Below, in pieces: positions 1 through 61,573 of a stretch of 64,000 nt of DNA (position 1 is its first letter; every line of letters begins with the position of its first letter). Position numbers and translations under genes: made by a program. The DNA comes from a virus (lineage: Duplodnaviria; Caudoviricetes), in IMG/VR virus record IMGVR_UViG_3300017913_002030, positions 1 through 64,000 of that record, one strand, 5' to 3'. The notes beneath the pieces are model-generated. The model was not told where the DNA came from. It saw nothing but the letters and a program-made list of their open reading frames with translations, and searched no databases.

Positions 1-3000
1 ACCAGCAAATACTCGACTGTAGTTACCAGTGTAATTACCTGCGAATGCACGTGAGTAATTACCAGTGTATTCACCAGCGAAGTCACGTGAGTAATTACCA
101 GTGTAGTTACCTGCAAATCCAGGAGTTGCTAGAGTTGCTGTAACAGTGTTACCAGTTAGGTTGTCTGCAACAGCACCAGTTCTTACTTCAGTAACGTTAT
201 CGTTTGCGTCGGTGATTCTATATCCATCGAATGACTTATATGTGCCATCCGCCTTCCACGTAAACTGCGTAGACTGATCATGTACTGAAGGAGCGCCACT
301 ACTTGTATTGTCAGTAACATGACCACTACTGATGTCAGTACTATCTTGCCTAAATTGTAATTGCTTTTCGTGCTCGCCCAGATTGTAGGTTTCAACAACA
401 CTATTAAGTCCTGGACGATTAATATCAATAAGAGAAATATCGCCCGATAGAATTTCAACTCTCTTAACTGATCCGGCAGAATCCACCGCTGCGTAGAAAT
501 CGTTCCTCAATTGTGCTCTTATAGAACTAGCTTGAAAAGTGAATCGAACTTTCCATCCAGAGACTAGTGTGACACCATAACTTGATTCAGGCACCAACCC
601 AGTAGTTGGACCAGTATATGTGCCAGTGTACTCACCTGCGAATCCGCGCGTGAAGTTACCGACATATTGCCCAGAGAAGTCACGTGAGTAAGTACCAGTA
701 TAGTTACCTACAAAGTCACGTGAATATGTGCCAGCATATTGACCAGAGAATGAACGCGAATATGTTCCAGTGTACTCACCAGCAAAGCCACGTGAGTAGT
801 TACCGACATATTGTCCAGAGAAGTCACGTGAGTAAGTACCAGTATAGTTACCTACAAAGTCACGTGAATATGTGCCAGCATATTGACCAGAGAAGTCGCG
901 TGTATAGTTACCGACATAGTTACCACCAAAGTCACGTGTATATGCACCAGTGTATTCGCCTACAAAATTACGCGAGTAAGTTCCAGCATATTCGCCTGCG
1001 AATCCTCGAGAGTAAGTTCCTGCATATTCACCGGCGAAATCACGTGAGTAGTTGCCTACGTAATTCCCAGCGAAGTCACGACTGTAGTTACCGACATAGT
1101 TACCACCAAAGTCACGTGTATATGCACCAGTGTATTCGCCAGCGAAATCACGTGAGTAGTTGCCCACATAGTTACCACCAAAGTCACGGCTGTAGTTGCC
1201 TACGTAATTCCCAGCGAAGCCACGAGTGTACGCACCGGTGTATTCGCCAGCGAAGTCGCGTGAATATGTGCCAGCATATTGACCAGAGAATCCTCTAGCA
1301 TAGTTTCCTACATACTGACCAGAGAAGGCACGTGAGTAGTTACCGACATAGTTATCGACGATCTGGCGTGTATATGCACCAGTGTATTCACCAACGAAGT
1401 CGCGAGTGAAGTTACGAGCATAATTGCCGACGAAGTCATTTGAGTAAGTACCAGTATATTGACCAGAGAAACCTCGTGTATAGTTGCCAGTATAGTTGCC
1501 AGCAAAGTCACGAGAGTAAGTTCCAGTGTATTCACCTGCAAATCCACGAGAATAGTTACCCGCAAAGTTGCCGACGAAATCACGTGTATATGTACCAGTG
1601 TATTCACCCGCAAATGTTCTTGAGTAATTTCCTACGAAGTTACCTGCAAAGTCACGAGAGTAGTTACCTGTGAAGTCACGAGAGTAGTTACCTGTGAACG
1701 TACGGTTATACGCACCAGTGTAATTCCCCGCAAAGTTGCGCGAGAAGTTACCTACGTACTGACCAGAGAATGCACGAGTATATGCACCAGAATATGCGCC
1801 TGTGTACTGACCAGAGAATGCTCTTGTGTAAGTACCTGTGTACTGACCAGAGAATGCCCTAGCATAATTACCTGCATAGTTGCCGGCGAAACCACGTGAG
1901 TAGTTACCGACATAGTTGCCTGCAAAGTTGCCTACGAAATCGCCTACAAAGTTGCCAGCGAAGTTACGGCTGTACTGACCAGAGAAGTTACGCGAGTAGT
2001 TTCCAACAAATCCACGTGAATAGTTACCAGTGTAGTTACCAGTGAATACACGTGAGTATGATGGAGTTGCATAACGCAATTGGTCGATTGTAGGTGCCGA
2101 TGGATGAGACATATCGTCTACACGAGGATCATACCATTGCTGACTTACAGATGGGTTTGTTGAGTAATACAAGTATGAACGCATAAATGTATCGTTCTGA
2201 GTATCACCCCAAATAAAGTCAGATACAACGTTCGCTACCATCTCACCTGAAGTATTATAGACACCAGATGTTGAATCTTTAGTCCCTACAGTTGTTCCTG
2301 CTGGGTGTACGTGACCAACAATTAAGAACCATTCGTTCGAAGTATCTGCGGTAGTGCCTGTCATAGTGGCCCAATCGTGACTTACGAAATATGGGTTGAT
2401 GGTTTGAGCACCATTAGAGGCGTGCTTGATGATGTCAGATCCAGTTGCTGCAGGTGTATTGTGAACATCCCATCGAGAGCCTGGACCTAGATAAGTGTAA
2501 CCGTCTCCAGAAAGAACGCCGGTAACAGGACGACGAATCCACATAGAGTATCGATATTTCTTAGTTCTATCGATGCTAAACGTGCTTGAAGTTGGACCGC
2601 CTTCGTAGTCACTCGCCGCATCATTACCTGGCTGATCAAGAACTAATCCAGGACCGAACGGTGTGTCTGTGATTGACTTGACTTCACCCTGAACTGTTTG
2701 ATCAGACCAAGCTTGCTGACCCGCAACCCAAGAGTTTGCCAACCAACCGCTCTGCCACAACTTATTAGAGTAATCATAATATGTTCCGCTAGCAGTACCA
2801 GTCGTTGCATTCCTAGAGTAAGACTGAATTCTTGTTCGAGAATAGCTGTTCGCATACTGTCCTACGAATGTCGATAGACGTGTACGTGCGTAAGCAGAGT
2901 AACGTGTACGTGTTGATGTACGAGCGTACTCGCCAGTATAGTTACCAGTATACTCGCCAACAAATCCACGAGAGTAGTTTCCGACAAAATCGCCAGCGAA

Positions 3001-6000
3001 GTTACGGCTGTAGTTTCCGATAAAGTTGCCCGCGAAGTTAGTTACGCGATCACGAGTATACGCTGAACCACGTGTACGAGTCGATGTACGTGCGTAAGCA
3101 GAACCACGATTACGTGTAGAGTTACGTGTAGAAACGCGTGTAAAGTTACCTACGTAGTCTGTGATACGTGTTCTTGAGTATGCACTGTAACGTGTACGAG
3201 TAGACGTACGAGTCGAAACACGTGTGAAGTTACCTACGTAATTTGTGATACGTGTACGAGCATACGCTGAATTACGTGTGCGTGTGTAGTTCGTTGCGCG
3301 AGTACGAGCATATGCTGAGTAACGTGTGCGAGTCGATGTACGAGTTGAAGTACGTGCGTAGTTACCAGTGTATGTTACCGCACTAGTTCTTGCATATGCG
3401 CTGTTACGTGTGCGAGTATAATCAGTTGCACGTGTGCGAGCGTATGAAGAGTAACGTGTACGAGTAGAAGTACGAGTTGATGTACGTGAGAAATCACCAA
3501 CATAGTTAGTAACACGTGTACGAGCGTATGCTGAGTAACGTGTACGAGTCGATGTACGTGTAGAAGTACGAGCATACTCACCAACGAAGTTGCCTGCATA
3601 GTAACCAGTACGCGTATAATTGCCTACAAAGTTACCCGCATAATAACCTGTGCGAGTATAATTTCCTACGAAATCACCTGCATAGTAACCAGTACGTGTA
3701 TAGTTATCTGTACGCGTCGATGTACGTGTGCTAGTGCGAGTAAATGCGCGAGCGTAGTTACCAGTGTAACTTAATGTACGCGTATAGTAACCAGTATTTG
3801 TTGACGTACGAGTAGAAGTACGTGAATAATTACCTACATATGAGAAAGGACGGTTACGTGAGTAAGCAGCCACTCTGTTACGTGCATAAGCACGAGAGTA
3901 GTTACCAACATAACTACCTGCACGAGTGCGCGAGTAGTTGCCAGTATATGTTACGTTGCGAGAGTAGTTGCCCACAAAGTTACCAGTGTATGTTGCAGTA
4001 CCTGAGAAATTACCACCGAAGTTGCCTGCGAAATCACCTGTGTAACTAATTGATGATACTCCTCGAATCGTCAATGCATACCATGCCACTCCACCTGACG
4101 TGTATTGATAAGTGCCTCTTTCAATCCATCTTGTGCCAGCAGAAACAGTTGTACCGCCACTAAACCAACCAGAATTTGTGTTAAGGAACCCTGTCACACC
4201 GGAACTATGTGTTTCAATGACGTTCTGTGGGTGTTTATAAATGGTAATAGCACCCGTGGATGCGTTTTCGGCCCAAGCAACCGGATCACCTTTACCACCT
4301 GCGGTAAACGCGTTATTTAGATAGTATGTCGAGTTAGGACCGGATCCTGTTGACACACGAGTAGAGGTTCTTGTTGATGTACGAGTTGAAGAAGTATTTC
4401 TTGTATACCCTGTAGCCCTAGTTCTGCTGTAACTTGCTGTTCCTGCTCTATTACGTGAATAATTGCCTGCATATGAGAATGCGCGACTACGAGTAAATGC
4501 ACGAGAGTAGTTACCAACAAATGTTCGGCTATAGTTGCCTGTATAGTTACCTGCACGAGTACGCGAGTAATTGCCTACGAAATTGCCTGCATAGTACAAT
4601 GTACGAGTATAGGCAGGTGTGCGTGTATAGTTTGCAGAATAATTACGTGCATAATTACCTACGAAGTTGCCAGCGAAACTCAATGGGCGTGAATAGACAA
4701 GAGTACGTGTTGATGTACGCGTTGATGTACGAGTGTAATCTAGAACACGAGTAGAGGTTCTTGTTGATGTGCGAGTGTAATCTAGAACACGAGTAGAAGT
4801 GCGAGTTGAAGTTCTTGCATAGTTACCTACGAAATCACCTGCAAAGTTGCCCGCATAACCACGTGCATAGTTACCAACAAAGTCGCCAGTAAATGTTGTC
4901 GCATAATTGCCAACGTAGTTACCAACATAGTTGCCAGCGAAACCACGTGCATAATTGCCTACGAAGTTGCCTACGTAATTTCCAACGAAACCACGTGCGT
5001 AGTTACCAACGAAACTTGATGGTCGTGCACGAGTATATTCGCCTACGAAATTACCGGCATAGTTGCCAGCAAATGCGCGTGAATAATTGCCTACGAAGTT
5101 GCCTGTATAATCGCCAACAAAGTTACGAGCATAGTTACCAACGAAGTCGCCAGTAAATGTTGTTGTGTAGTTACCAGTATAGTTGCCACCATAATTACCA
5201 GCAAATGCGCGTGAATAATTACCTACGAAGTTGCCAGTAAATGTTGTTGTGTAGTTACCAGTATAGTTGCCTGTATAGTCGCCTACGAATGTGCGAGCAT
5301 AGTTACCGACAAAGTCTCCCGCAAAGTTGCGGGAATAATTACCGATGAAGTTACCTGCAAAGTTTGTTACGCGGTCACGAGTGTATGCAGATGCACGAGT
5401 ACGTGTTGAAGTACGTGCATATGCTGAGTAACGAGTACGTGCAGATACGCGAGTAGAAACTCGGGCGTAGTTACCGACATAGTTACCAGCGAAACCACGC
5501 GAGTAGTTTCCTACAAAGTTACGCGAGTAGTTTCCTGCAAAGTTACGGCTGTAGTTGCCTACGAAGTTTCCTGTATAGTTTGCAGTACGTGTTGCTCGGA
5601 CATACGAAGAAACGCGATCACGTGCATAGACGGCAGAGTATACAGAAGTGCGTGTACGGGCATATGTCGAAACACGTGCACGTGAGAAGACGCCTGTAAA
5701 GTTAGTAACTCGTGTACGAGTATAGTTTGTCACTCGTGTACGAGTATAATCTGCTGAATATGCTGAGTTACGTGTTCTTGTTGATGTGCGAGTGTAAACA
5801 GAGTTACGTGAACGAGAATATGTGCCAGCGTATGCAGAGACACGGTTACGAGAATAAGTTCCTGCGTAAGTGCCTGTATAAGATGATACACGAGTACGTG
5901 AGAAAGTTGCTGCATAAGTCGAAGTACGTGCACGTGCATATGTTCCTGAGTAAGTAGAAACACGGCCACGAGTGTATGCCGAAGTACGAGTACGTGCAAA

Positions 6001-8262
6001 GATACCAGCAAAGTTTGTTACACGGTCGCGTGTGTATACTGAAACACGTGCACGACTGTAAGTGCCTGAATAACTGTTAGTAAATGCAGTTAGACGTGTA
6101 CGTGTGTACGCAGATGCACGAACTCTTGAGTATGTACCACCATACGCTGAAGTACGTGTTCGAGTATATGCTGCAGCAAATGCAGATGTACGTAGACGTG
6201 AGTAAGTACCGTCATAAGTTGAAGTACGAGTACGTGCGAAAGTGCCTACGTAAATCGAAGTACGTGAACGCGCATATGTTCCTGAGTATGCAGATGTACG
6301 GTTACGTGTATAGTTACCTGCGTATGTAGAAATACGTGCACGTGAGTAAGTGTCTATGTACGATGAAACACGATTGCGTGAGTATGTACCGTTGTACGTA
6401 GAAGTTCGAGTACGTGAGTAAGTACCTGTGTAAGAAGATACCCGAGTACGGCTGTAGTCAAACGAATATACTGAAGTACGTGTGCGAGTGTAATCGGCAG
6501 AATATACTGAATTACGTGTACGTGAGTAAGTACCTGAGTAAGAAGAAACGCGTGTACGAGTATAGTCGGCAGAGTATGTCGAAGTACGTGTACGAGCATA
6601 ATCAAACGAGTACGATGATGTACGAGTGCGTGAATAAGTTCCTGCGTATGATGAAACACGGTTACGTGCATATGTACCATCGTAAGTAGATGTACGTGTA
6701 CGGGAATATGCACCTGAATATGCTGAAGTACGTGTTCGAGCGTAATCGAATGAATATGCTGAAGTGCGTGTACGTGAATATGTTCCATCAAATGTTGAAG
6801 TACGAGCACGTGAGTAAGTGCCTGAGTAAGACGACGGACGTGTACGCGAGTACGTAGCGGCATAAGCAGAATTACGTGTGCGTGAGTATGTTCCATCAAA
6901 CGTAGAAACACGAGAACGCGAGTAAGTACCTGAATATGCTGAGTTTCTTGTGCGCGAATATGTGCCATCGTAAGTAGATGTGCGCTCGCGTGAGAATGTT
7001 GTTACATATGAAGAAATACGGTTACGCGCATATGTACCATCAAATGTTGAGGTACGAGCACGAGTGTAGTCTTCAATATATGCGCTGGCACGGGTACGTG
7101 CATACGTACCGGCATATGCCGAGTTACGTGCACGAGTTGATTCACGAGCATATGAAGAAACACGTGCACGTGAGTATGTGCCATCAAAAGTTGAGGTACG
7201 AGTACGCGAGTAATCTGCCGAATAATGCTGAATACGACCACGTGTGTATGTCCCGTCAAACGTAGAGATACGAGTGCGAGCATAGTTACCTGTGAAGTCA
7301 CGAGAGTAATTACCTGTAAATCCACGTGAGTATGCACCAGTGTAGTTGCCTGTAAACGCACGACTAAATGTATTTACGCTATTACGTGAGAATGTAGAAA
7401 TACGATCACGAGTATACGCAGAAACACGAGAACGAACGTAAGATGAGTTACGAGTACGTGTGTATGCTGTGTCAACTAGAGTACGACGTGTGTTAGTCGC
7501 AGTACCAGCAGACATCCAAGTTCCTGGCATAATCGGTGCGCCCTGTGCAGAAGAACGCAACTGGTAAGAACCAATCGCACCTGCAGTCGCACGTAGAGAC
7601 TTGACTCGTTGACCAAGTGAATACTTGATCTGTGCGTCGGTCATCTCTTTGAAACCGTCGAACGCGGTTGGGTCGTTTTCGTCATAACAAATTGTAACTG
7701 GGCGATGTGCATCAACTGCAGGCATCGTAACGCGCTGATATATGCTATAGTTCTCAACGGTGCCATCACCGTGAGTATCAGAGAATGCGTTTTCAATAAA
7801 AAGTGCGTAGTCATCACCAGGCGAAGTTTTCGCTAACTGAAATGATCCTACGTAATTGTTTGAAGCCATGTTGCCTAGAACACGACCTGCGAGATTATCC
7901 AAATCTGCGTCTACCATTTCGTAGAATCCTGGATTTGGTCCGTTTTCGTAATAACCGACAGGACGGGCAAAGTCAGCACCAGATTCATCAGCAGGACCAG
8001 CAACTTGCTTCAACGTAGTTGTAGTTGTGGTACTTGTGATGTTAGACAGAGGGTGAGTTCCTGCTGGTTCATTATAGTACGCGTCCGTAAATGAACCAAT
8101 AGAGTTACCGTCTGTCAAACTGATATCACCGACATCACCAGCAGAGGCCTCTGCTAGTGCTTGACCCACTGCGTACGCAAGATAGTTTTCCTGCGCCGGA
8201 GTGAATTCCTGTAGGTCACCATTCGAATTTTTAATTTTTAGTGGTATGCTCGATGCTGACAC
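1..8262 (-). CDS. Giant (>2,754 aa, 3'-truncated by window) low-complexity repeat protein with embedded globular domains; probable virion fibre/surface protein
   Basis: Manual translation from GTG at 8262 gives MSASSIPLKIKNSNGDLQEFTPAQENYLAYAVGQ... Blocks checked at 7.3-8.2, 6.8-6.9, 5.6, 4.0-4.4, 2.0-3.0 and 0-0.7 kb are all open in the same frame; not every codon was checked. Repeats include YSRTRNSAYSGT, STRTSTRV and GNYTGNYSRDFA. Purine-rich RBS-like AAGAGAG and a TATAAATA late promoter lie upstream. Probably absent from the ORF track because its stop lies outside the window. Confidence 0.9.
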   Translation of the reverse strand, partial: MSASSIPLKIKNSNGDLQEFTPAQENYLAYAVGQALAEASAGDVGDISLTDGNSIGSFTDAYYNEPAGTHPLSNITSTTTTTTLKQVAGPADESGADFARPVGYYENGPNPGFYEMVDADLDNLAGRVLGNMASNNYVGSFQLAKTSPGDDYALFIENAFSDTHGDGTVENYSIYQRVTMPAVDAHRPVTICYDENDPTAFDGFKEMTDAQIKYSLGQRVKSLRATAGAIGSYQLRSSAQGAPIMPGTWMSAGTATNTRRTLVDTAYTRTRNSSYVRSRVSAYTRDRISTFSRNSVNTFSRAFTGNYTGAYSRGFTGNYSRDFTGNYARTRISTFDGTYTRGRIQHYSADYSRTRTSTFDGTYSRARVSSYARESTRARNSAYAGTYARTRASAYIEDYTRARTSTFDGTYARNRISSYVTTFSRERTSTYDGTYSRTRNSAYSGTYSRSRVSTFDGTYSRTRNSAYAATYSRTRPSSYSGTYSRARTSTFDGTYSRTRTSAYSFDYARTRTSAYSGAYSRTRTSTYDGTYARNRVSSYAGTYSRTRTSSYSFDYARTRTSTYSADYTRTRVSSYSGTYSRTRNSVYSADYTRTRTSVYSFDYSRTRVSSYTGTYSRTRTSTYNGTYSRNRVSSYIDTYSRARISTYAGNYTRNRTSAYSGTYARSRTSIYVGTFARTRTSTYDGTYSRLRTSAFAAAYTRTRTSAYGGTYSRVRASAYTRTRLTAFTNSYSGTYSRARVSVYTRDRVTNFAGIFARTRTSAYTRGRVSTYSGTYARARTSTYAATFSRTRVSSYTGTYAGTYSRNRVSAYAGTYSRSRNSVYTRTSTRTRNSAYSADYTRTRVTNYTRTRVTNFTGVFSRARVSTYARTRTSVYSAVYARDRVSSYVRATRTANYTGNFVGNYSRNFAGNYSRNFVGNYSRGFAGNYVGNYARVSTRVSARTRYSAYARTSTRTRASAYTRDRVTNFAGNFIGNYSRNFAGDFVGNYARTFVGDYTGNYTGNYTTTFTGNFVGNYSRAFAGNYGGNYTGNYTTTFTGDFVGNYARNFVGDYTGNFVGNYSRAFAGNYAGNFVGEYTRARPSSFVGNYARGFVGNYVGNFVGNYARGFAGNYVGNYVGNYATTFTGDFVGNYARGYAGNFAGDFVGNYARTSTRTSTRVLDYTRTSTRTSTRVLDYTRTSTRTSTRTLVYSRPLSFAGNFVGNYARNYSANYTRTPAYTRTLYYAGNFVGNYSRTRAGNYTGNYSRTFVGNYSRAFTRSRAFSYAGNYSRNRAGTASYSRTRATGYTRNTSSTRTSTRTSTRVSTGSGPNSTYYLNNAFTAGGKGDPVAWAENASTGAITIYKHPQNVIETHSSGVTGFLNTNSGWFSGGTTVSAGTRWIERGTYQYTSGGVAWYALTIRGVSSISYTGDFAGNFGGNFSGTATYTGNFVGNYSRNVTYTGNYSRTRAGSYVGNYSRAYARNRVAAYSRNRPFSYVGNYSRTSTRTSTNTGYYTRTLSYTGNYARAFTRTSTRTSTRTDNYTRTGYYAGDFVGNYTRTGYYAGNFVGNYTRTGYYAGNFVGEYARTSTRTSTRTRYSAYARTRVTNYVGDFSRTSTRTSTRTRYSSYARTRATDYTRTRNSAYARTSAVTYTGNYARTSTRTSTRTRYSAYARTRATNYTRTRNSAYARTRITNYVGNFTRVSTRTSTRTRYSAYSRTRITDYVGNFTRVSTRNSTRNRGSAYARTSTRTRGSAYTRDRVTNFAGNFIGNYSRNFAGDFVGNYSRGFVGEYTGNYTGEYARTSTRTRYSAYARTRLSTFVGQYANSYSRTRIQSYSRNATTGTASGTYYDYSNKLWQSGWLANSWVAGQQAWSDQTVQGEVKSITDTPFGPGLVLDQPGNDAASDYEGGPTSSTFSIDRTKKYRYSMWIRRPVTGVLSGDGYTYLGPGSRWDVHNTPAATGSDIIKHASNGAQTINPYFVSHDWATMTGTTADTSNEWFLIVGHVHPAGTTVGTKDSTSGVYNTSGEMVANVVSDFIWGDTQNDTFMRSYLYYSTNPSVSQQWYDPRVDDMSHPSAPTIDQLRYATPSYSRVFTGNYTGNYSRGFVGNYSRNFSGQYSRNFAGNFVGDFVGNFAGNYVGNYSRGFAGNYAGNYARAFSGQYTGTYTRAFSGQYTGAYSGAYTRAFSGQYVGNFSRNFAGNYTGAYNRTFTGNYSRDFTGNYSRDFAGNFVGNYSRTFAGEYTGTYTRDFVGNFAGNYSRGFAGEYTGTYSRDFAGNYTGNYTRGFSGQYTGTYSNDFVGNYARNFTRDFVGEYTGAYTRQIVDNYVGNYSRAFSGQYVGNYARGFSGQYAGTYSRDFAGEYTGAYTRGFAGNYVGNYSRDFGGNYVGNYSRDFAGEYTGAYTRDFGGNYVGNYSRDFAGNYVGNYSRDFAGEYAGTYSRGFAGEYAGTYSRNFVGEYTGAYTRDFGGNYVGNYTRDFSGQYAGTYSRDFVGNYTGTYSRDFSGQYVGNYSRGFAGEYTGTYSRSFSGQYAGTYSRDFVGNYTGTYSRDFSGQYVGNFTRGFAGEYTGTYTGPTTGLVPESSYGVTLVSGWKVRFTFQASSIRAQLRNDFYAAVDSAGSVKRVEILSGDISLIDINRPGLNSVVETYNLGEHEKQLQFRQDSTDISSGHVTDNTSSGAPSVHDQSTQFTWKADGTYKSFDGYRITDANDNVTEVRTGAVADNLTGNTVTATLATPGFAGNYTGNYSRDFAGEYTGNYSRAFAGNYTGNYSRVFAG
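601..7480 (-). repeat. Coding 12-bp/36-bp periodic repeat arrays (tetrapeptide and dodecapeptide) inside the giant ORF
   Basis: Recurring plus-strand words gttacc, acgtgagta, tgtacg; near-exact 90-bp duplication 661-750 vs 805-894; interrupted by unique domains at ~2060-2790 and ~4040-4330. Confidence 0.9.
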
Positions 8263-8320: not shown

Positions 8321-8328
8321 TATTTATA
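8321..8328 (-). promoter_or_regulatory. T4-type late promoter TATAAATA
   Basis: tatttata on + strand, ~60 bp upstream of the giant ORF and just past a terminator. Confidence 0.8.
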
Positions 8329-8330
8329 AT

Positions 8331-8368
8331 AAAAAAAATGTGCGGACACCGAAGTAACCGCACATTTG
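8331..8368 (-). terminator. Intrinsic terminator
   Basis: Stem aaatgtgcgg/ccgcacattt followed by a U-run on the minus strand, downstream of 8392..8862. Confidence 0.85.
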
Positions 8369-8391: not shown

Positions 8392-8862
8392 TTACTGTGG
8401 TGGAGTTGGCCAGTTTACATCCTCTAAACTTTCAACTCCGTCTAAAGAATCTGTGATATCACGCAGTTCTTGGCGATAAGTTGCCCACGACTCTTTCATC
8501 TCTGGAGATAGTGGTGCATCTTCAACTGTCTGAGTCCAATCAGACTCGGATAAAAGGTCATTACGAATTCTTCTAATCTCCCCCTCAAACCGTACTCGAT
8601 CTAAGGTCCATGCTTTATTAACCCAGATGTGGTATGGTGAAGGATGCGGTTCTCTAGTTTCCCATGAGGAAGTATCATTATCCCAATAATAGTTCTGAGA
8701 AGCCTCGAGCGGATTAGACACATTCAAATTCTCATTCCATGAATGTACTGTATGTCCATTTACGTCCACTGATCCTTCGACATAATCAGTCGAAAAGACT
8801 TCTAATATGTTGACAATCTGACCGTGGTCGTTGACAAAACACTTTGCATTTGATTTTAACAT
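8392..8862 (-). CDS. Tail fibre assembly chaperone (Phage_tail_APC/Tfa-like)
   Basis: C-terminal IRRIRNDLLSESDWTQ...WATYRQELRDIT...VNWPTPP signature. Confidence 0.85.
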   Translation of the reverse strand: MLKSNAKCFVNDHGQIVNILEVFSTDYVEGSVDVNGHTVHSWNENLNVSNPLEASQNYYWDNDTSSWETREPHPSPYHIWVNKAWTLDRVRFEGEIRRIRNDLLSESDWTQTVEDAPLSPEMKESWATYRQELRDITDSLDGVESLEDVNWPTPPQ

Positions 8863-28904: not shown

Positions 28905-29996
28905 TTAATTTCCTACGATTACGTTATCGTCGCCTATATTAATTTCTATTATATCTGAATTACCAAAAAAGACATCGTATGTTGATTCAGTAATTTCTTT
29001 CTGTTCTATTACATCTGGTTGCGGTAATGGTTGATATCTATATTCTGTACGAAACAATTCGACCATTTCCATGTCAACTGTTTTTTCGCTAAAGTCTGCG
29101 TCTAGTGTCTCAAAATCATCATTTACGTATACATCTACATCACTCAATAGAATAGAGCCCACTGCTTGCCAGTCCGCCAATGTGCCGTAGATTTCTAAGA
29201 TACGATTAAGAGACATTGTATTGTAATGTTTTAGTTTTCCTTCTGAACTCAGAATAAACGTCTGATCTACTAAATCAGTCTCTCTCATCGTCATCAAAGA
29301 GAACTGAGACGTGACCGACGCGTGAGTCTCTTCTTCTAAAAACACATATGGCGTCTCTAAAGGATCTGTTCCTTCTCCTTGAGACTCGATGCTACCCACA
29401 CCTTTAGTCGCAACTTCTGACGCTAGGTAAAAGCCCGCAGGATGTACAAATTTCTTATAGAGAGCATCATAGTCAATAGAAGACAAACCTGTTTTCAAAA
29501 GAACTGAAAAGATTTGAAATCTTCGATCATCTGTGATAAACTTAACCGATTCAGGACCGATTAATGAGTTGCCCGGTTTATCATTCAGATAGAATATGTT
29601 ATTTTTTGGATAAAGAACCTCAACGTCTTCGTTGAAGAACATCTTGAAGAATTGTTCTGCTGAGTTTTGAGTACCTTTCTTTCTATAGAAGTTTGCAAGA
29701 AGTCTTGCAGAAAGTTTTGCACGTTCTTCTTGACCTTCTTCTGGAAATATTGTAGTATCTACACCATTACCTATCTCTCTTAAAAGATAGTTTAGTGCGT
29801 CTAGTTCTATCGACGTTATCTCTCGAATATCAAACAGTTCTTTAATCTTTGCCTCATACGAAATCGTATCATCTTCTTTCGTATATGCATAATATCTCTC
29901 AAGGAATTTGACCAAGAGAGGATAATCAGACACAAAGAATTCAGGCAGTAACTCTTCTACCTGACTAGTATACAGATTGAGATTCGATCTACTCAT
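28905..29996 (-). CDS. gp7: Baseplate wedge initiator gp7-like (short form)
   Basis: LPEFFVSDYPLLVKFLERYY, FYRKKGT...FFKMFFNEDVEVLYPK and VHPAGF motifs; follows gp6. Confidence 0.7.
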   Translation of the reverse strand: MSRSNLNLYTSQVEELLPEFFVSDYPLLVKFLERYYAYTKEDDTISYEAKIKELFDIREITSIELDALNYLLREIGNGVDTTIFPEEGQEERAKLSARLLANFYRKKGTQNSAEQFFKMFFNEDVEVLYPKNNIFYLNDKPGNSLIGPESVKFITDDRRFQIFSVLLKTGLSSIDYDALYKKFVHPAGFYLASEVATKGVGSIESQGEGTDPLETPYVFLEEETHASVTSQFSLMTMRETDLVDQTFILSSEGKLKHYNTMSLNRILEIYGTLADWQAVGSILLSDVDVYVNDDFETLDADFSEKTVDMEMVELFRTEYRYQPLPQPDVIEQKEITESTYDVFFGNSDIIEINIGDDNVIVGN

Positions 29997-31831
29997 TACA
30001 ATAGAACCTTAGTTCCGTCTGCTTCGACATTGACCAATACGATAGAATCTGAATCAAGTTCAAACAGGTAGTTTCTTAGTGGTTTGATCGTGCTCTGATT
30101 TGCAGGCATAACATTTACTTTAACTGTAGATCCGCTAGATCGATCAAATGGAAAGCCTTTAAAGTTGACAGTTCCTTGTGCAGGGTTGTAATCACCTATG
30201 TTTGCGACCAAGACATTACCCACAGCGTCAACGATCTGTAGTGTATACGAGCCTAACTTATTTCTAACTAATGCAGTTTTGTTAAAGTACTTGAACGCCG
30301 AAGTAGAGACAACATAATCATCATTGTCTGGTGTCGCCATCAAGAACGGGAAGTTAACACTCACATCTCGCTCGATGACTTCTGGCGATTCTCTTAGATT
30401 AATCGCATTGTATTGATCTACTTCATCGAACAACGCATCCACATTAATCTCTCTTTGAGCCATTACACTCATCTTAGAGTTTAGAATTGCCGGACTATAA
30501 TCATCTACTTTAGCAAGTAAATTAGATCTACGGAACGTAGAATTGAATGTAGACATATTCTCTCGAAAATGTCTTGAGATAAGATCGCGTATCTGTTGGC
30601 GATAAGACTCAGAGCTTGTGGTTGCGAGAGTTGCGTCTAAATTGAATGATGTAACTAATTTCAATTTCACAACTTCAGGATCAACAAATTCTGTATCAAT
30701 TGACATGATAGATCTGTAGTCAGTCAGATTTTCTTTGATCAGTTTCTTAATTTCATTCTTGACTGAATCTGTATACCCATCTAGGAAGTTGATTGAAACA
30801 AAGACAGAACCGAACTTTGGTGGAACGTTATCATTACCACCCCAAGATGTTACATCTTTTAGATATTGCCCGTACAGACTTTTAATTGTCGATGTATAGT
30901 CTTCTGCTGTAACCAGTCGCTGTTGAGTCGCAAATGCGCGTGGTGCGTTAACTTTAATCTCTTCGACTGATTCTTTTTCTGATCCGCCAGATGCTGGTGA
31001 TACAGTTACGACTCTCTTATCATATCCATCAAACGCATCTACTGCGAACTTGGCAGCGCCATTCGCATCTGCGCCAGACGTTGCAATGTAACTTACTTGA
31101 ATAACATTACCTGCAGAAGGGCGAATCCCCAGCAACTCACCGTCGCCGAAATACATTTCATACTCACCAGCCGGAGTTTCTCTCAACATATAGACACGAG
31201 AATCGTTTGTGATTGCAGGAGCAGTCAGAATGTTTTTATAACGTATTGATACATTCGACGTGGAGTTTTCATATACGTCAACGATCATTGTTGTTGTATC
31301 GATATCACTGTCAGGAATAACAAAGACAGTTTCGATATCAGCATCAGCAAAGAATGTCTTTGTACGCTCTTTACCTTCGTAGACATCGACGCCAGAAAAA
31401 ACAAACTCATCGTCACTATTTCTACTTGCAACATACTCTTGATTCGTGTAAAATACAAATGCCGCGTCATCTACAGAGGCAGGGAATCGTGTACGAGCTG
31501 GGATGAGTTCTTCGTTAGATGAACCTAGAGGATCTGATACTACAATATCGACTGTTGCCGTTGCAGATGATTTTGATCTAGGTGTGTAACCTAAAGACTC
31601 TGCGTGACCTAACACAGAGGATCTTAACTGAGATGTAGATAGGAATGATTCATTGATAGCCATATTTGCGATCAATGCATTTACGTGTGTGTTGTATGCT
31701 AACACGTCCAAGATGCTTGACAAACCACTTGCGTCAAAATCATAATCTTTAAACTCCGAAGAGTTTTTAAAATAAGTCTTTAACTTACTTTTAATATTAA
31801 CAAAATCTAGATCACTTGTATTGACCGTCAT
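29996..31831 (-). CDS. gp6: Baseplate wedge subunit gp6
   Basis: LDFVNIKSKLKTYF...DYDFDASGLSSILDVLAYNTH; QQRLVTAEDY. Confidence 0.92.
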   Translation of the reverse strand: MTVNTSDLDFVNIKSKLKTYFKNSSEFKDYDFDASGLSSILDVLAYNTHVNALIANMAINESFLSTSQLRSSVLGHAESLGYTPRSKSSATATVDIVVSDPLGSSNEELIPARTRFPASVDDAAFVFYTNQEYVASRNSDDEFVFSGVDVYEGKERTKTFFADADIETVFVIPDSDIDTTTMIVDVYENSTSNVSIRYKNILTAPAITNDSRVYMLRETPAGEYEMYFGDGELLGIRPSAGNVIQVSYIATSGADANGAAKFAVDAFDGYDKRVVTVSPASGGSEKESVEEIKVNAPRAFATQQRLVTAEDYTSTIKSLYGQYLKDVTSWGGNDNVPPKFGSVFVSINFLDGYTDSVKNEIKKLIKENLTDYRSIMSIDTEFVDPEVVKLKLVTSFNLDATLATTSSESYRQQIRDLISRHFRENMSTFNSTFRRSNLLAKVDDYSPAILNSKMSVMAQREINVDALFDEVDQYNAINLRESPEVIERDVSVNFPFLMATPDNDDYVVSTSAFKYFNKTALVRNKLGSYTLQIVDAVGNVLVANIGDYNPAQGTVNFKGFPFDRSSGSTVKVNVMPANQSTIKPLRNYLFELDSDSIVLVNVEADGTKVLL

Positions 31832-57432: not shown

Positions 57433-58419
57433 TCAATCTCTATAATCATTGAGTGTAAAGTTTGTTCCATGCATTTTCATCAAATCACGTTCATGATTAG
57501 TATAGACCAACACTTCTGGATCATCAATTAGGAAGTCACAGTTCTTACAGAAATCTGGATAATCTCCGGTACGATGTTGTTCACGTAGTTTCTCGTATTC
57601 TTCACCAAAGAAGATGTCAAGAATATTATCTTCGGAACAATGTCCCAGTACGGCTTCTTCGTCACGACCAAGCACTTGACAGCAAGGGTGTACTGCACCT
57701 GTTTCGCCTTCTAATCCGCCAGCACGAATCACTACGTCTGGTGAGAATGGTCGACCACACGTCTTTACTTTGCCCTCACGCGCATTATCACCAATCTCAT
57801 AAACACCTGACCAGTTGTGCATCTTCCAGATCTCTGTCTTGACACCCAACTCATCAACGAGCGATTTGTACTTCTCTAGTTCTTCATCAATGTTGTCATT
57901 GTCTGTGATCAAGTGGTACGTCGATACAACACAGTCGGAACCAGACTCGTTTACATAGTCAACCATCTCTTGAATGTTGCGTTTGATCTGCGCGTAGTGC
58001 CCACCCACGGCGTTGTACATCCATTTGGTGTAGTCTTGTTCGTCTGCGCCAATGAATGAAAAACGATAGAAGTCTAGTCCCGCATCGACACAGTCGCGCA
58101 TGTACTGACCTTCCATCTTAAATCCGTTAGAGAAAATAAATGCCTTCGCGCCATACTTCTTCACTACCTTAATGTACTCAGGTAGGTTCTTCGCCATCGT
58201 CGCTTCACCAGAACCGTCTAAGTTGACAACGTTCAAGCCATACTGTGCACAGTCAGCGACGTACTTTTCAAACTCATCCAGTTTCATGATACGACGAAAC
58301 CCTTTGTGGCGGCCGCCTTCTCGTAAATCTTGTGGGCACATACTGCACGAGTAGTTACATCCACCCGCGACTTCGATCACTGCACGATCAATTTGAAATG
58401 TATCTCTAGTCATTTCCAT
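57433..58419 (-). CDS. Radical SAM enzyme with SPASM/twitch domain
   Basis: CNYSCSMC; GSGEA; C-term CGRPF...PCC...C.NC. Confidence 0.9.
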   Translation of the reverse strand: MEMTRDTFQIDRAVIEVAGGCNYSCSMCPQDLREGGRHKGFRRIMKLDEFEKYVADCAQYGLNVVNLDGSGEATMAKNLPEYIKVVKKYGAKAFIFSNGFKMEGQYMRDCVDAGLDFYRFSFIGADEQDYTKWMYNAVGGHYAQIKRNIQEMVDYVNESGSDCVVSTYHLITDNDNIDEELEKYKSLVDELGVKTEIWKMHNWSGVYEIGDNAREGKVKTCGRPFSPDVVIRAGGLEGETGAVHPCCQVLGRDEEAVLGHCSEDNILDIFFGEEYEKLREQHRTGDYPDFCKNCDFLIDDPEVLVYTNHERDLMKMHGTNFTLNDYRD

Positions 58420-59892: not shown

Positions 59893-60053
59893 TGTTTTAC
59901 CTTGAAGTCTTTGGGATCACCGTTGATGAGTTCTTTCGCCTTGGTCTCCCAAATCCATGGGCACAGTCCGTGAACAAAGGACACGAAAGAGATTGTCCAA
60001 GCCCTTCTTAGATGTTCGAAGTAACTTAACTCAATCTCTTTCAGGTGTTTCAT
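59889..60053 (-). CDS. 54-aa hypothetical protein (not in ORF track)
   Basis: MKHLKEIELSYFEHLRRAWTISFVSFVHGLCPWIW...; overlaps both neighbours. Confidence 0.65.
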   Translation of the reverse strand: MKHLKEIELSYFEHLRRAWTISFVSFVHGLCPWIWETKAKELINGDPKDFKVKQ

Positions 60054-61573
60054 TAGAAGACCTTAACGTCGTATTTTTGTTCCCACAGTTCACGGTCGTG
60101 TTCATCGTTGACCATCGGTCTGCCGCGAATGTTTAAACTAGTATTTAGTAACATAGGCACTCCAGTACGCTCATAATATTCTTCGATGACCTTACGGAAC
60201 ACCGACTCGCAATCCTTGCGCACAATCTGCACACGCGCGGAACCATCCACGTGTGTAACAGGTGCGTAGTCATGCTTCGCCCACGAGGTGAACTGCATGT
60301 ACTCGTTCATCGGTCCGTCGAAGTATTCGTCTGCAAACTCTTCGAGAATCGCAGGAGCGAATGGACGGTACTTCTGTCTGCGCTTGATCGTATTGACAGT
60401 ATCCTGAATGTCGTATCTTACATCAGCAATAAGTGAGCGGTTGCCAAGAGCTCTAGGGCCGAATTCAGCCCTTCCATTAGCAATACCGCAATAGCGATGT
60501 TCGAGCAGATGATCAACGACAGCGCTGGGATTAATAGGAGTTGTAATATCGTATCCCGCATATGGACTCCAAATAAGTTTATCCTTACCTGTTGCTTTTG
60601 CCCATGAGCGTGCCGCAGCACCTAGACCTGAACCAGCGTCCGTTGGTGATACTGCAATGTGCACTTCGTCGAACAACTCAAATAGACGCGAGTTGATTAC
60701 GACGTTCTGTGCGCACCCCCCAGAGTAACACAACTTCTTACCATATTTAGCAGCTTCGCGCATTATACTCATAATTGCATAGTCAGCAAAGTCCTGTACC
60801 GCACGTGCGGCGACTGCATCGTCTACTGCTGTAATTTTTAAACGTAGTTCTTCACGAAATAATCGGCGATCTTTTTCTCTCTGAGATGTCTCAACATCGC
60901 CAACTGCAATGCCTTCTGCGAGTTCCGGTGCAATGTCTTCTAAGTCTTCCCACCATGCGATTAACCAATCAGTGATTGCTTTCGACTCAGGTGATGTTTC
61001 GTGATATGCGGATAGACCCATGACCACGTACTCATCTTCAAGTGGACGCAGACCCAAGAACTTGGTTACCGTAGTATACACTAACCCAACCGACTTAGGA
61101 TACTGCCACTCTTTGATTAGATTGAAATTGTGATCCATAATGGTCGCACACTGCAACTCACCAACACCGTCGATCGATACTAATACAGTATCTTCAGATG
61201 AATTCCATGGGCGAGTGTAGAATGCTGATGCACAGTGTGACTCGTGGTGCATATGATTCACGTCATATGTCATTGAATCGGGAATGACCATACGTGAGAA
61301 TGTCTCTTTTGCGGTATCTGGTCTATTCTTTAAGTGTTTTGTATCACCCTTCACGCCATGACCACCTCGCATATCAAACTTGACTGTGTGATCTTCATAA
61401 AAAGAAACATGATCATCATTACTAACCATATCCCATAGTTCTTCGGGAATTAATGGATCATTCTTTTTCTTAGAGTAGCGTTCGCCGTGAGTCGCGAACT
61501 CAACAACACCTTCTTCGTTTATGACTGCAAAACCTGAATCGTGATAATGTTCACTAAAACCTACGTACTTCAT
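60053..61573 (-). CDS. Carbamoyltransferase (NodU/CmcH family)
   Basis: GFSEHYHDSG; HHESHCASAF; DGVGE; GRAEFGPRALGNRS; RQKYRPFAP; LLNTSLN. Confidence 0.92.
   Translation of the reverse strand: MKYVGFSEHYHDSGFAVINEEGVVEFATHGERYSKKKNDPLIPEELWDMVSNDDHVSFYEDHTVKFDMRGGHGVKGDTKHLKNRPDTAKETFSRMVIPDSMTYDVNHMHHESHCASAFYTRPWNSSEDTVLVSIDGVGELQCATIMDHNFNLIKEWQYPKSVGLVYTTVTKFLGLRPLEDEYVVMGLSAYHETSPESKAITDWLIAWWEDLEDIAPELAEGIAVGDVETSQREKDRRLFREELRLKITAVDDAVAARAVQDFADYAIMSIMREAAKYGKKLCYSGGCAQNVVINSRLFELFDEVHIAVSPTDAGSGLGAAARSWAKATGKDKLIWSPYAGYDITTPINPSAVVDHLLEHRYCGIANGRAEFGPRALGNRSLIADVRYDIQDTVNTIKRRQKYRPFAPAILEEFADEYFDGPMNEYMQFTSWAKHDYAPVTHVDGSARVQIVRKDCESVFRKVIEEYYERTGVPMLLNTSLNIRGRPMVNDEHDRELWEQKYDVKVF

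What the first reader, a model, noticed from the sequence alone, without database searches (positions are those of the whole stretch)
1..8262. Unannotated >2,750-aa tetrapeptide-repeat protein hidden under shadow ORFs
Seen: one minus-strand frame open from GTG 8262 past base 1, with its own late promoter and an upstream terminator. Most of it has strict 4-residue periodicity with Tyr/Phe at a fixed position (G-N-Y-T, R-D-F-A, Y-S-R-T-R-x-S-x-Y-x-G-T). Codons appear strongly biased (CGT, GGT, TAC, AAC), consistent with high expression. Inference: a long beta-solenoid or cross-beta filament, i.e. a virion appendage unlike T4 gp34-37. I do not recognise it as any characterised family.
Basis: partly seen in the sequence, partly recalled or inferred. 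Interest (0 to 1): 0.88.

Follow-up and report, generated by a model that had tools for sequence, protein, structure and literature searches.

The report
Giant fold-back phage fibre protein
This is a real gene, cut off by the contig end, for a roughly 3,000-residue fibre protein of an uncultured marine T4-like phage whose chain seems to run out about 1,000 residues, turn at a small tip domain and pair with itself all the way back, a fibre design I could not find described.

Summary
Window 1-8262 (minus strand) is one open frame of 2,754 codons from a conserved GTG. A conserved terminator hairpin and a TATAAATA late promoter precede it, and the frame runs off the contig end. It is under purifying selection (dN/dS 0.09-0.18 against Phage C48C1).

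It belongs to a large unnamed family: 356 clusters in metagenomes, no Pfam, PHROG or PDB match, and one deposited phage. Members share a ~260-aa base domain, x-x-x-[Y/F/R] tetrads with a 12-residue superperiod, and a C-terminal ...ETYTLYVRxA motif.

The outward arm (aa 261-1283) matches the return arm read backwards, without gaps: 892-1283 with 1821-1430, and 412-891 with 2546-2067. Arg faces Gly or an aromatic, and Gly faces an aromatic. Arm insertions and deletions between close relatives occur in equal-length mirror pairs (14/14, 28/28, 36/36, 40/40, 44/44). Globular domains sit at the turn (aa 1284-1429) and as bulges on the return arm only. These domains diverge fastest.

AlphaFold on a short relative confidently returns the C-terminus to the base domain. 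The fibre shaft itself could not be modelled. Virion location and oligomeric state are inferred.

The scan had already found this fold-back family on other DNA. This is its giant, beaded form.

The parts
1..8262 (-). Open frame of 2,754 codons for the giant fibre protein. The C-terminal part (about 250 aa by comparison with C48C1) lies beyond the contig end.
7483..8262 (-). Base domain, aa 1-260, made of three internal ~90-aa repeats. It is the family's conserved N-terminal module (97% identical to C48C1).
4414..7482 (-). Outward (N) arm, aa 261-1283: an uninterrupted run of x-x-x-[Y/F/R] tetrads, mostly in 12-aa units (S-R-T-R / T-S-x-Y / x-G-T-Y, then G-N-Y / R-x-F types).
3976..4413 (-). 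Tip domain, aa 1284-1429: unique sequence at the turn of the hairpin, only 29-34% identical to close relatives.
2800..3975 (-). Return (C) arm, segment 1, aa 1430-1821. It pairs without gaps with aa 1283-892 (i+j = 2713).
2065..2799 (-). Globular bulge on the return arm, aa 1822-2066. Its fold was not determined. Homologous domains occur next to LamG domains in other proteins.
625..2064 (-). Return arm, segment 2, aa 2067-2546: the strict tetrapeptide block of 117-120 tetrads. It pairs without gaps with aa 891-412 (i+j = 2958).
133..624 (-). Second globular bulge on the return arm, aa 2547-2710 (25-32% identical to relatives).
1..132 (-). Return arm, segment 3, aa 2711-2754, cut by the contig end. 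Its partners should lie within aa 261-411.
8321..8328 (-). T4-type late promoter box TATAAATA, 59 nt upstream of the GTG and conserved in relatives.
8331..8367 (-). Intrinsic terminator of the upstream chaperone gene: a 10+3 bp stem, a UUCG loop and a T8 run.

Best explanation
The frame encodes a giant member of an undescribed family of fibre proteins from uncultured aquatic T4-like myoviruses. It is transcribed late, from its own TATAAATA promoter.

The proposed path of the chain is as follows. A ~260-aa base domain built of three internal repeats sits at the virion end. The hairpin loop of its third repeat is drawn out into the fibre. About 1,020 residues of four-residue units run outward (aa 261-1283). 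A 146-aa domain forms the distal tip. The chain then returns antiparallel to the outward arm.

On one face of the ribbon, every second residue is paired by a size and charge rule: Arg opposite Gly or Tyr/Phe, and Gly opposite Tyr/Phe. The C-terminal ...ETYTLYVRxA strand, which lies beyond this contig, re-enters the base domain. Globular domains are spliced only into the return arm and bulge out as beads.

If the ribbon is straight, it would be up to about 0.3 micrometre long. The fast-diverging tip and beads are the likely host-binding parts, and the arms are a length-setting scaffold.

Shown here: a real gene, the family, mirror complementarity, paired indels, and the module context. Inferred: physical pairing of the arms, virion attachment, host binding, and whether the fibre is a monomer or a trimer.
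For: Real gene: dN/dS is 0.09-0.18 against C48C1 in all blocks. The start, promoter and terminator are conserved.

Family: the base domain finds 356 clusters (147 at E<=1e-30). Nearly all full-length hits end in ETYTLYVR and show lag-4 aromatic periodicity.

Context: the order gp8, DUF4815 giant, fibre(s), this gene, a conserved 4-gene cassette including an LtfC-like assembly protein, then gp13-15 recurs on four independent contigs. In the window a Tfa-type chaperone gene lies upstream.

Fold-back, mirror complementarity: a class-based antiparallel alignment pairs aa 892-1283 with 1821-1430 and aa 385-891 with 2573-2067, both without gaps. The CBM-like domain is skipped exactly. On antidiagonal 2713 there are 130 complementary and 2 same-class pairs. 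The 96 same-register shifted controls give 9.6-28% same-class pairs. Arg-rich runs visibly face Gly/aromatic runs.

Fold-back, paired indels: compared with C48C1, P0002 and P0003, arm indels come as equal-length mirror pairs. These are 14/14, 40/40, 28/28, 44/44, 14/14 and 36/36.

Fold-back, full-length relatives: in P0002 (708-1700) and C48C1 (262-1297) the outward arm aligns with no gap to all return-arm repeat segments in reverse order. P0003 (721-1715) has one 8-residue gap. Every return-arm gap is a globular domain. Same-class pairs number 1, 2 and 4 out of about 345-380.

Fold-back, family level: antiparallel scoring beats parallel in 62 of 69 members. The first arm residue typically pairs with residue L-17. 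Anchored covariation peaks at one offset, with z about 3.

Structure model: AlphaFold2 of the 657-aa relative P0016 gives the base domain and the C-terminal 25 residues pLDDT 86-98. It predicts long strands 253-291 and 615-655, whose ends satisfy i+j = 908, the register found from sequence alone.

No DNA palindrome explains the mirror pattern: all self-matches lie on the same strand.

The tip and beads are 25-45% identical to relatives, against 61-81% for the arms and 90-97% for the base.
Against: There is no confident structural model of the shaft. AlphaFold2 on the window's own hairpin-tip region gave pLDDT 30 with a 3-sequence alignment. In P0016, confidence falls below 50 about 40 residues from the base.

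I could not read contacts from the model, so the pairing of strands 253-291 and 615-655 is inferred from their extents.

The complementarity of the very regular block (i+j = 2958) barely discriminates between registers that differ by 12 residues: 3 clashes against 5-6.

The window lacks the C-terminus, so closure at the base is taken from relatives.

There is no proteomic, EM or expression evidence that the protein is in virions. A free two-stranded ribbon of this length has no precedent.
Confidence: 0.72

Rival explanations
1. One reading: a single-pass parallel beta-solenoid or cross-beta stack. Each 12-residue unit would form one triangular coil of three 4-residue sides, giving a rod much shorter than the chain.
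For: There is a strong 12-residue superperiod, with autocorrelation 0.65-0.77 at lag 3 tetrads, persisting to lag 12. Gly and Asn sit at fixed positions, as at solenoid corners. The faces are Thr/Ser-rich, as in ice-binding solenoids (general knowledge; for the ice-nucleation precedent).
Against: A solenoid does not predict mirror complementarity between distant halves, a unique antiparallel register, or equal-length mirror-paired indels. Three aromatic side chains per 12-residue coil would have to share a very small core (my inference). In P0016, AlphaFold2 draws the first 40 residues of each arm as single long strands, not coils.
Confidence: 0.08
2. The same fold-back topology, but as a homotrimer. 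Three out-and-back chains would build a six-stranded shaft, as in the needle of T4 gp37, and arm pairing could be partly between chains.
For: Phage fibres are almost always trimers (established knowledge). In gp37 the collar domain D10 is built from residues 811-881 plus 1010-1026, flanking the needle D11 (882-1009). So that chain also goes out and returns (PMC6957217).
Against: The base domain is itself a three-repeat unit within one chain, and it is modelled confidently as a monomer. There are no His-x-His metal sites in the arms. Both ribbon faces are polar, with no hydrophobic core-forming face.
Confidence: 0.3
3. A structural protein, but not a host-binding tail fibre. It could be a whisker or collar filament, a tail-length or spacing device, or a decoration that senses the environment.
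For: Its position between the baseplate wedge genes and gp13/gp14 is where T4 carries gp12 and fibritin. Both termini are conserved, unlike classical fibres, which have variable C-terminal tips.
Against: In the fold-back model the distal end is mid-chain, and the tip and bead domains there are the most divergent parts. The fibre gene is 82% identical in nucleotides to the C48C1 gene, and its base domain is 97% identical in protein. Yet gp6 of the same two phages is only 48% identical. That is the pattern of exchanged host-range modules.
Confidence: 0.15

Closest known systems
Needle (domains D10-D11) of the phage T4 long tail fibre protein gp37
   Same: It is a phage fibre whose chain runs to a distal tip and comes back, so the receptor-binding end is mid-sequence and both flanks meet in one proximal domain (PMC6957217). 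Gly/aromatic packing between strands is functionally critical there too (G921/F970, same paper).
   Different: The gp37 needle is about 130 residues long. It is an obligate trimer held by seven iron ions at His-x-His sites. Here each arm has about 1,000 residues of tetrad repeats with an Arg/Gly/aromatic pairing rule. There is no HxH in the arms and no sequence or fold match, and globular domains are inserted in the return arm.
Repeat beta-solenoids such as bacterial ice-nucleation proteins (16-residue coils) and pentapeptide-repeat proteins
   Same: Both are long arrays of short repeats with Tyr, Thr and Gly at fixed positions and Arg-rich subregions (PMC9418140 and PMC10727499 abstracts).
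   Different: The period here is 4/12 rather than 16 or 5. There is no Pfam match. The mirror complementarity and paired indels point to a hairpin, not stacked coils.
Beta-prism domains of the MABP / MACPF C-terminal type (3tow, 2qp2, 8b6v)
   Same: These are the best structural matches to the P0016 model: Z 5.8-6.5, rmsd 3.6-3.9 A over 116-120 residues. A three-fold pseudo-symmetric prism would fit the three internal repeats of the base domain.
   Different: The Z values are below the tool's usual background of 7-8. There is no sequence relation and no functional link. This is a lead only.
Earlier notes of this scan on shorter relatives (about 500-1,800 aa) in other genomes
   Same: They share the base domain, tetrad arms, C-terminal YTLYVR and the mirror-complementarity reading.
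   Different: These are AI notes, not publications. The window's protein is the giant form, with arms about 1.6 times longer than those noted and with several globular domains bulging from the return arm only.

Membership tests
T4 long tail fibre proteins gp34-gp37 (sequence families) | Detectable sequence similarity to the Pfam/PHROG fibre families or to solved gp34/gp37 chains | tested here: not met
   Pfam gave 0 families at E<=0.1. PHROGs gave only one unknown-function hit at E 0.003. PDB sequence searches with the protein and with a family profile found nothing at E<=1.
gp37 needle-type fold-back fibre | The chain runs to the tip and returns, with both flanks meeting proximally | tested here: met
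   Inferred from mirror complementarity, mirror-paired indels and the AlphaFold2 base model. This is sequence-level inference, not a structure.
gp37 needle-type fold-back fibre | His-x-His iron-binding sites along the shaft | tested here: not met
   His makes up 0.5% of residues, and none lie in the repeat arms.
gp37 needle-type fold-back fibre | Homotrimer | not testable with these tools
Pentapeptide-repeat / ice-nucleation-type beta-solenoids | A 5- or 16-residue repeat matching the family profile | tested here: not met
   The period is 4 with a 12-residue superperiod. There is no Pfam hit.
New family defined here (base domain + tetrad arms + YTLYVR end) | N-terminal ~260-aa base domain with the invariant G..GxW motif | tested here: met
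   Window aa 1-270 match 356 clusters. G231, G247 and W249 are invariant in 89 sequences.
New family defined here (base domain + tetrad arms + YTLYVR end) | C-terminal ...T-I-E-T-Y-T-L-Y-V-R-x-A strand | not testable with these tools
   The window's gene is cut before its end. The three closest full-length relatives all carry the motif.
MABP-like beta-prism (base domain) | Three-fold pseudo-symmetric beta-prism fold | tested here: inconclusive
   VIA-align gave Z 5.8-6.5 over about 118 residues. Foldseek against PDB and BFVD found nothing at E<=0.001.
LamG / concanavalin-like lectin (bulge domain aa 1822-2066) | A match to the Laminin_G_3 profile over the domain itself | tested here: not met
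   Pfam found nothing even at E<=5. Homologues carry Laminin_G_3, but in a different part of the chain than the part that aligns to this domain.

The most novel reading that the evidence does not exclude
The shaft is a free-standing, single-chain, two-stranded antiparallel beta-ribbon of about 1,000 residue pairs, up to roughly 0.3 micrometre long. Its register would be written in a simple residue-pairing code (Arg opposite Gly or aromatic, Gly opposite aromatic). Evolution could then lengthen or shorten the fibre only by matched insertions on both arms. It could also hang binding domains at chosen heights by splicing them into the return strand. That would be a new class of protein fibre and probably the longest beta-hairpin known.
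Probability: 0.4. Interest if true: 0.92.

Novelty: new variant of a known kind. Interest (0 to 1): 0.8.

Why it matters
If the fold-back reading is right, this family shows how a phage can build a very long, thin reach-out fibre from one polypeptide. Register and length would be set by a four-residue pairing code. The exchangeable tip and side domains would be the likely host-range determinants.

This bears on how uncultured marine and freshwater T4-like phages find scarce hosts. It could also give protein designers a programmable beta-ribbon scaffold.

The family has hundreds of metagenomic clusters but is absent from Pfam, PHROGs and the PDB, and it occurs in only one of 50,697 deposited phage genomes. 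So it is a sizeable blind spot in phage annotation.

Tried and rejected
- AlphaFold2 on window aa 1150-1563 (both arm ends plus the tip, 3-sequence alignment) gave mean pLDDT 30, so no usable model.
- Complex prediction for a trimer of aa 2085-2330 was busy three times and then withdrawn. No oligomer test was run.
- Fold searches with the P0016 model: Foldseek against PDB and BFVD found nothing at E<=0.001. VIA-wide gave only Z<=6.5. The Atlas library was not installed.
- Pfam on the three globular domains alone found nothing at E<=5. The second Atlas look-up was busy. The first gave only a CBM_4_9 lead at rank 26.
- Literature searches for tetrapeptide-repeat or beta-ribbon phage fibres, cyanophage giant fibres and 'C48C1' found nothing relevant.
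- Sequencing runs: no RNA holder was listed. The laid contigs are short and only confirm the sequence piecewise.
- The register of the last 44 residues (aa 2711-2754) against the outward arm could not be fixed, because the block is too short and too regular.
- A first antiparallel alignment of P0002 and P0003 used wrong arm boundaries. It was redone.
- I rejected the idea that the bulge domain is itself a LamG domain.
- I rejected a DNA palindrome as the source of the mirror pattern.
Full report
**1. What is there.**
Window 1-8262 on the minus strand is one open frame of 2,754 codons with no stop. The window begins at base 1 of an 83,938-base IMG/VR fragment, so the gene is cut by the contig end. 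A Logan contig of the probable source run carries a further 465 bases beyond window base 1.

The GTG start lies 59 nt downstream of a TATAAATA box at 8321-8328. The window holds 9 such boxes against 3.6 expected. Immediately before the box is a terminator hairpin with a UUCG loop and a T8 run (-16.5 kcal/mol, z -5.2). The hairpin, the box and the GTG are conserved in Phage C48C1 and in an independent metagenome contig.

**2. It is a real gene.**
The only relative among 50,697 deposited phage genomes is Phage C48C1 (OQ984149). There the homologue is one CDS of 3,347 aa annotated 'hypothetical protein'. It starts with the same residues and ends ...ETYTLYVRVA. Against it, dN/dS is 0.09-0.18 in every block, with dS near 0.9 in the repeats. 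Twelve other ORFs of at least 80 aa overlap the frame.

The codon bias is real for CGT (69% against 27% of Arg codons) and AAC (71% against 37%). It is absent for GGT and mild for TAC. I cannot say whether it reflects expression level or repeat ancestry.

**3. The repeats.**
Y/F pairs at lag 4 number 274, against 74 +/- 7 in shuffles. In aa 2078-2545, 117 consecutive tetrads carry Y/F at the fixed position (99%) and G (65%) or R (33%) two residues later, with no register slip. So every second residue belongs to the set {Y, F, R, G}. The residues between are small and polar (S, T, A, V, N, D).

The true unit is three tetrads. At the protein level the autocorrelation at lag 3 tetrads is 0.65-0.77. 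At the DNA level the dominant period is 36 nt and its multiples. No other gene in the window has such repeats.

**4. The family.**
The first 270 residues find 356 clusters in 1.84 billion representatives, 147 of them at E<=1e-30. The hits are 500-3,900 aa long. Nearly all full-length ones show the same lag-4 aromatic periodicity and end in ...T-I-E-T-Y-T-L-Y-V-R-x-A. None carries a name, and the sources are marine, estuarine and other aquatic metagenomes.

Pfam, PHROGs and the PDB give nothing, by sequence or by family profile.

On four independent contigs the gene sits in the same place:
- gp8, then a ~1,950-aa DUF4815 protein;
- one or more fibre genes, then this gene;
- a conserved cassette of ~150, ~245, ~225 and ~118 aa proteins, the last LtfC-like;
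- more large proteins, then gp13, gp14 and gp15.

In the window, a Tfa-type fibre chaperone gene and baseplate wedge genes lie upstream.

gp6 of the window is only 48% identical to gp6 of C48C1, and about 33% identical to those of Methylophilales, Pelagibacter and cyanobacterial myoviruses. The fibre gene, by contrast, is 82% identical in nucleotides and its base domain is 97% identical in protein. The module has therefore moved between rather different phages.

**5. The fold-back reading.**
A look-up of earlier notes of this scan showed that follow-up agents had read shorter relatives in other genomes as fold-back fibres with mirror-complementary arms. I tested that reading on this protein.

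I reduced residues to four classes (R/K, G, aromatic, other). I then aligned the region before the central unique domain against the reversed region after it.

*Gapless pairing.* Aa 892-1283 align without a gap to 1821-1430, and aa 385-891 to 2573-2067. The ~245-aa globular domain at 1822-2066 is skipped exactly.

*A unique register.* On the first antidiagonal (i+j = 2713) there are 130 complementary pairs and 2 same-class pairs. All 96 controls shifted within the same register give 9.6-28% same-class pairs. In the printed alignment, Arg-rich runs of T-S-T-R type on one arm face G-N-F/G-N-Y runs on the other, in both directions. The second antidiagonal runs through very regular 12-mers and hardly distinguishes shifts of 12 (3 clashes against 5-6).

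*Mirror-paired indels.* This is independent of the class rule. Ordinary protein alignments to C48C1, P0002 and P0003 show that arm indels come in equal-length pairs at mirror positions:
- against C48C1: 14/14 and 40/40;
- against P0002: 28/28;
- against P0003: 44/44, 14/14 and 36/36.

*Full-length relatives.* In P0002 (708-1700) and C48C1 (262-1297) the whole outward arm aligns with no gap to all return-arm repeat segments in reverse order. P0003 (721-1715) has one 8-residue gap. Every gap on the return arm is a globular domain. Same-class pairs number 1, 2 and 4 out of about 345-380. So the outward-arm length equals the summed return-arm repeat length.

*Applied to the window.* By this rule about 106 repeat residues are still missing. 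C48C1 has 109 after the equivalent point, plus one more globular domain. That suggests a full length near 3,000 aa.

*Family level.* The antiparallel score exceeds the parallel control in 62 of 69 members. The first arm residue typically pairs with residue L-17, just before the C-terminal motif. Covariation anchored on the two conserved motifs peaks at one offset, with z about 3.

*No palindrome.* All DNA self-matches lie on the same strand, so a palindrome does not explain the pattern.

**6. Structure prediction.**
AlphaFold2 on the window's own hairpin end failed (pLDDT 30).

On the 657-aa relative P0016, with a 60-sequence alignment, the base domain and the last 25 residues reach pLDDT 86-98. 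Two long strands are predicted, 253-291 and 615-655. Their ends satisfy i+j = 908, the register obtained from sequence alone. I could not inspect contacts, so their mutual pairing is inferred. Confidence fades about 40 residues from the base.

The family consensus shows three related segments in the base domain. Each carries a T-D-T element and, in consensus, a strand of T-L-Y-Q / N-I-Y-x-R / T-L-Y-V-R type. The third such strand is the C-terminus. The fibre therefore looks like an enormously extended hairpin loop of the third repeat.

Fold searches found no convincing relative. The best were beta-prism domains at Z 5.8-6.5, which is below the tool's usual background.

**7. Tip and beads.**
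Identity of each part to the three close relatives:

| Part | Identity |
|---|---|
| Base domain | 90-97% |
| Arms | 47-81% |
| Bulge, aa 1822-2066 | 44-45% |
| Tip, aa 1284-1429 | 29-34% |
| Bulge, aa 2547-2710 | 25-32% |

The first bulge has homologues in other proteins that also carry LamG domains, but in a different part of their chains. The domain itself is therefore not shown to be a lectin.

In all four giant proteins the globular domains lie at the turn or on the return arm, never on the outward arm. P0002, P0003 and P0004 additionally carry an FG-GAP insert of about 460 aa inside the base domain.

**8. How it most likely works.**
The base domain anchors the protein in the baseplate or tail region. 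This is inferred from gene position and the late promoter.

The two arms zip into an antiparallel ribbon. One face is a ladder of Arg-aromatic, Arg-Gly and aromatic-Gly cross-strand pairs, and the other face is small and polar. The pairing is inferred from sequence, not shown by structure.

At about 0.33 nm per residue, the ribbon would be up to roughly 340 nm long if straight. That is my arithmetic and an upper bound.

The tip and side domains then sample the host surface.

**9. Verdict.**

I found no description of this family in the literature I could search. The scan itself had already met the family on other DNA. This window adds three things:
- the giant, beaded form;
- a clean set of mirror-paired indels;
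- the rule that outward-arm length equals the summed return-arm repeat length.

Noticed in passing
window 29996-31831 compared with 1-8262; L001: gp6 of this phage is only 48% identical to gp6 of C48C1. The fibre gene is 82% identical in nucleotides and its base domain is 97% identical in protein. Within the fibre gene, dS is 0.15 for the base domain against about 0.9 for the arms. This points to recent exchange of the fibre's 5' end and its upstream region between divergent phages.
   Followed up: partly
L001 1429-5043; L010 13693-15924; L012 16859-19857; L013 21786-25403: A conserved cassette of four small genes (~150, ~245, ~225 and ~118 aa) lies downstream of the fibre gene in all relatives, directly after it on four contigs and after one intervening 1,065-aa gene in L014 (30-99% identity). 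Three have no PHROG or Pfam match. The 118-aa one is LtfC-like (phrog_3304). In L012 an extra glycosyltransferase-like gene (phrog_1962, E 2e-10) sits among them. They may be assembly or partner proteins of the fibre.
   Followed up: partly
window 1-8262 (-): There are 83 N-x-S/T sequons against 51 expected from composition, mostly G-N-Y-S/T tetrads. Another first-reader note raises glycosylation. I saw no direct evidence for it.
   Followed up: partly
P0002 aa ~200-655; P0003, P0004: An FG-GAP (PF14312) insert of about 460 aa is spliced into the third repeat of the base domain in three close relatives. It is absent from the window and from C48C1.
   Followed up: no
window 8392-8862 (-): A Tfa-type tail fibre assembly chaperone (phrog_4912, E 1.6e-14) lies directly upstream. 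It is separated from the giant gene by the terminator, so it probably serves the preceding 1,325-aa fibre.
   Followed up: partly
window 57433-58419 and 60053-61573 (-): A radical SAM/SPASM protein and a NodU/NolO-like carbamoyltransferase are present. The carbamoyltransferase is 85% identical to that of C48C1 and 26-38% identical to those of cyanophages and pelagiphages.
   Followed up: no
window, whole: TATAAATA occurs 9 times against 3.6 expected, at 8321, 32297, 38353, 38370, 38895, 44059, 51691, 56495 and 61601. These are candidate late promoters.
   Followed up: no
window 2065-2799 (-), aa 1822-2066: Homologues of this bulge domain occur in non-phage proteins, for example a Patescibacteria 'LamG domain-containing protein' (36% identity, E 1e-33 pairwise) and a protein with a subtilase domain. 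It is always a separate domain next to the LamG modules.
   Followed up: partly
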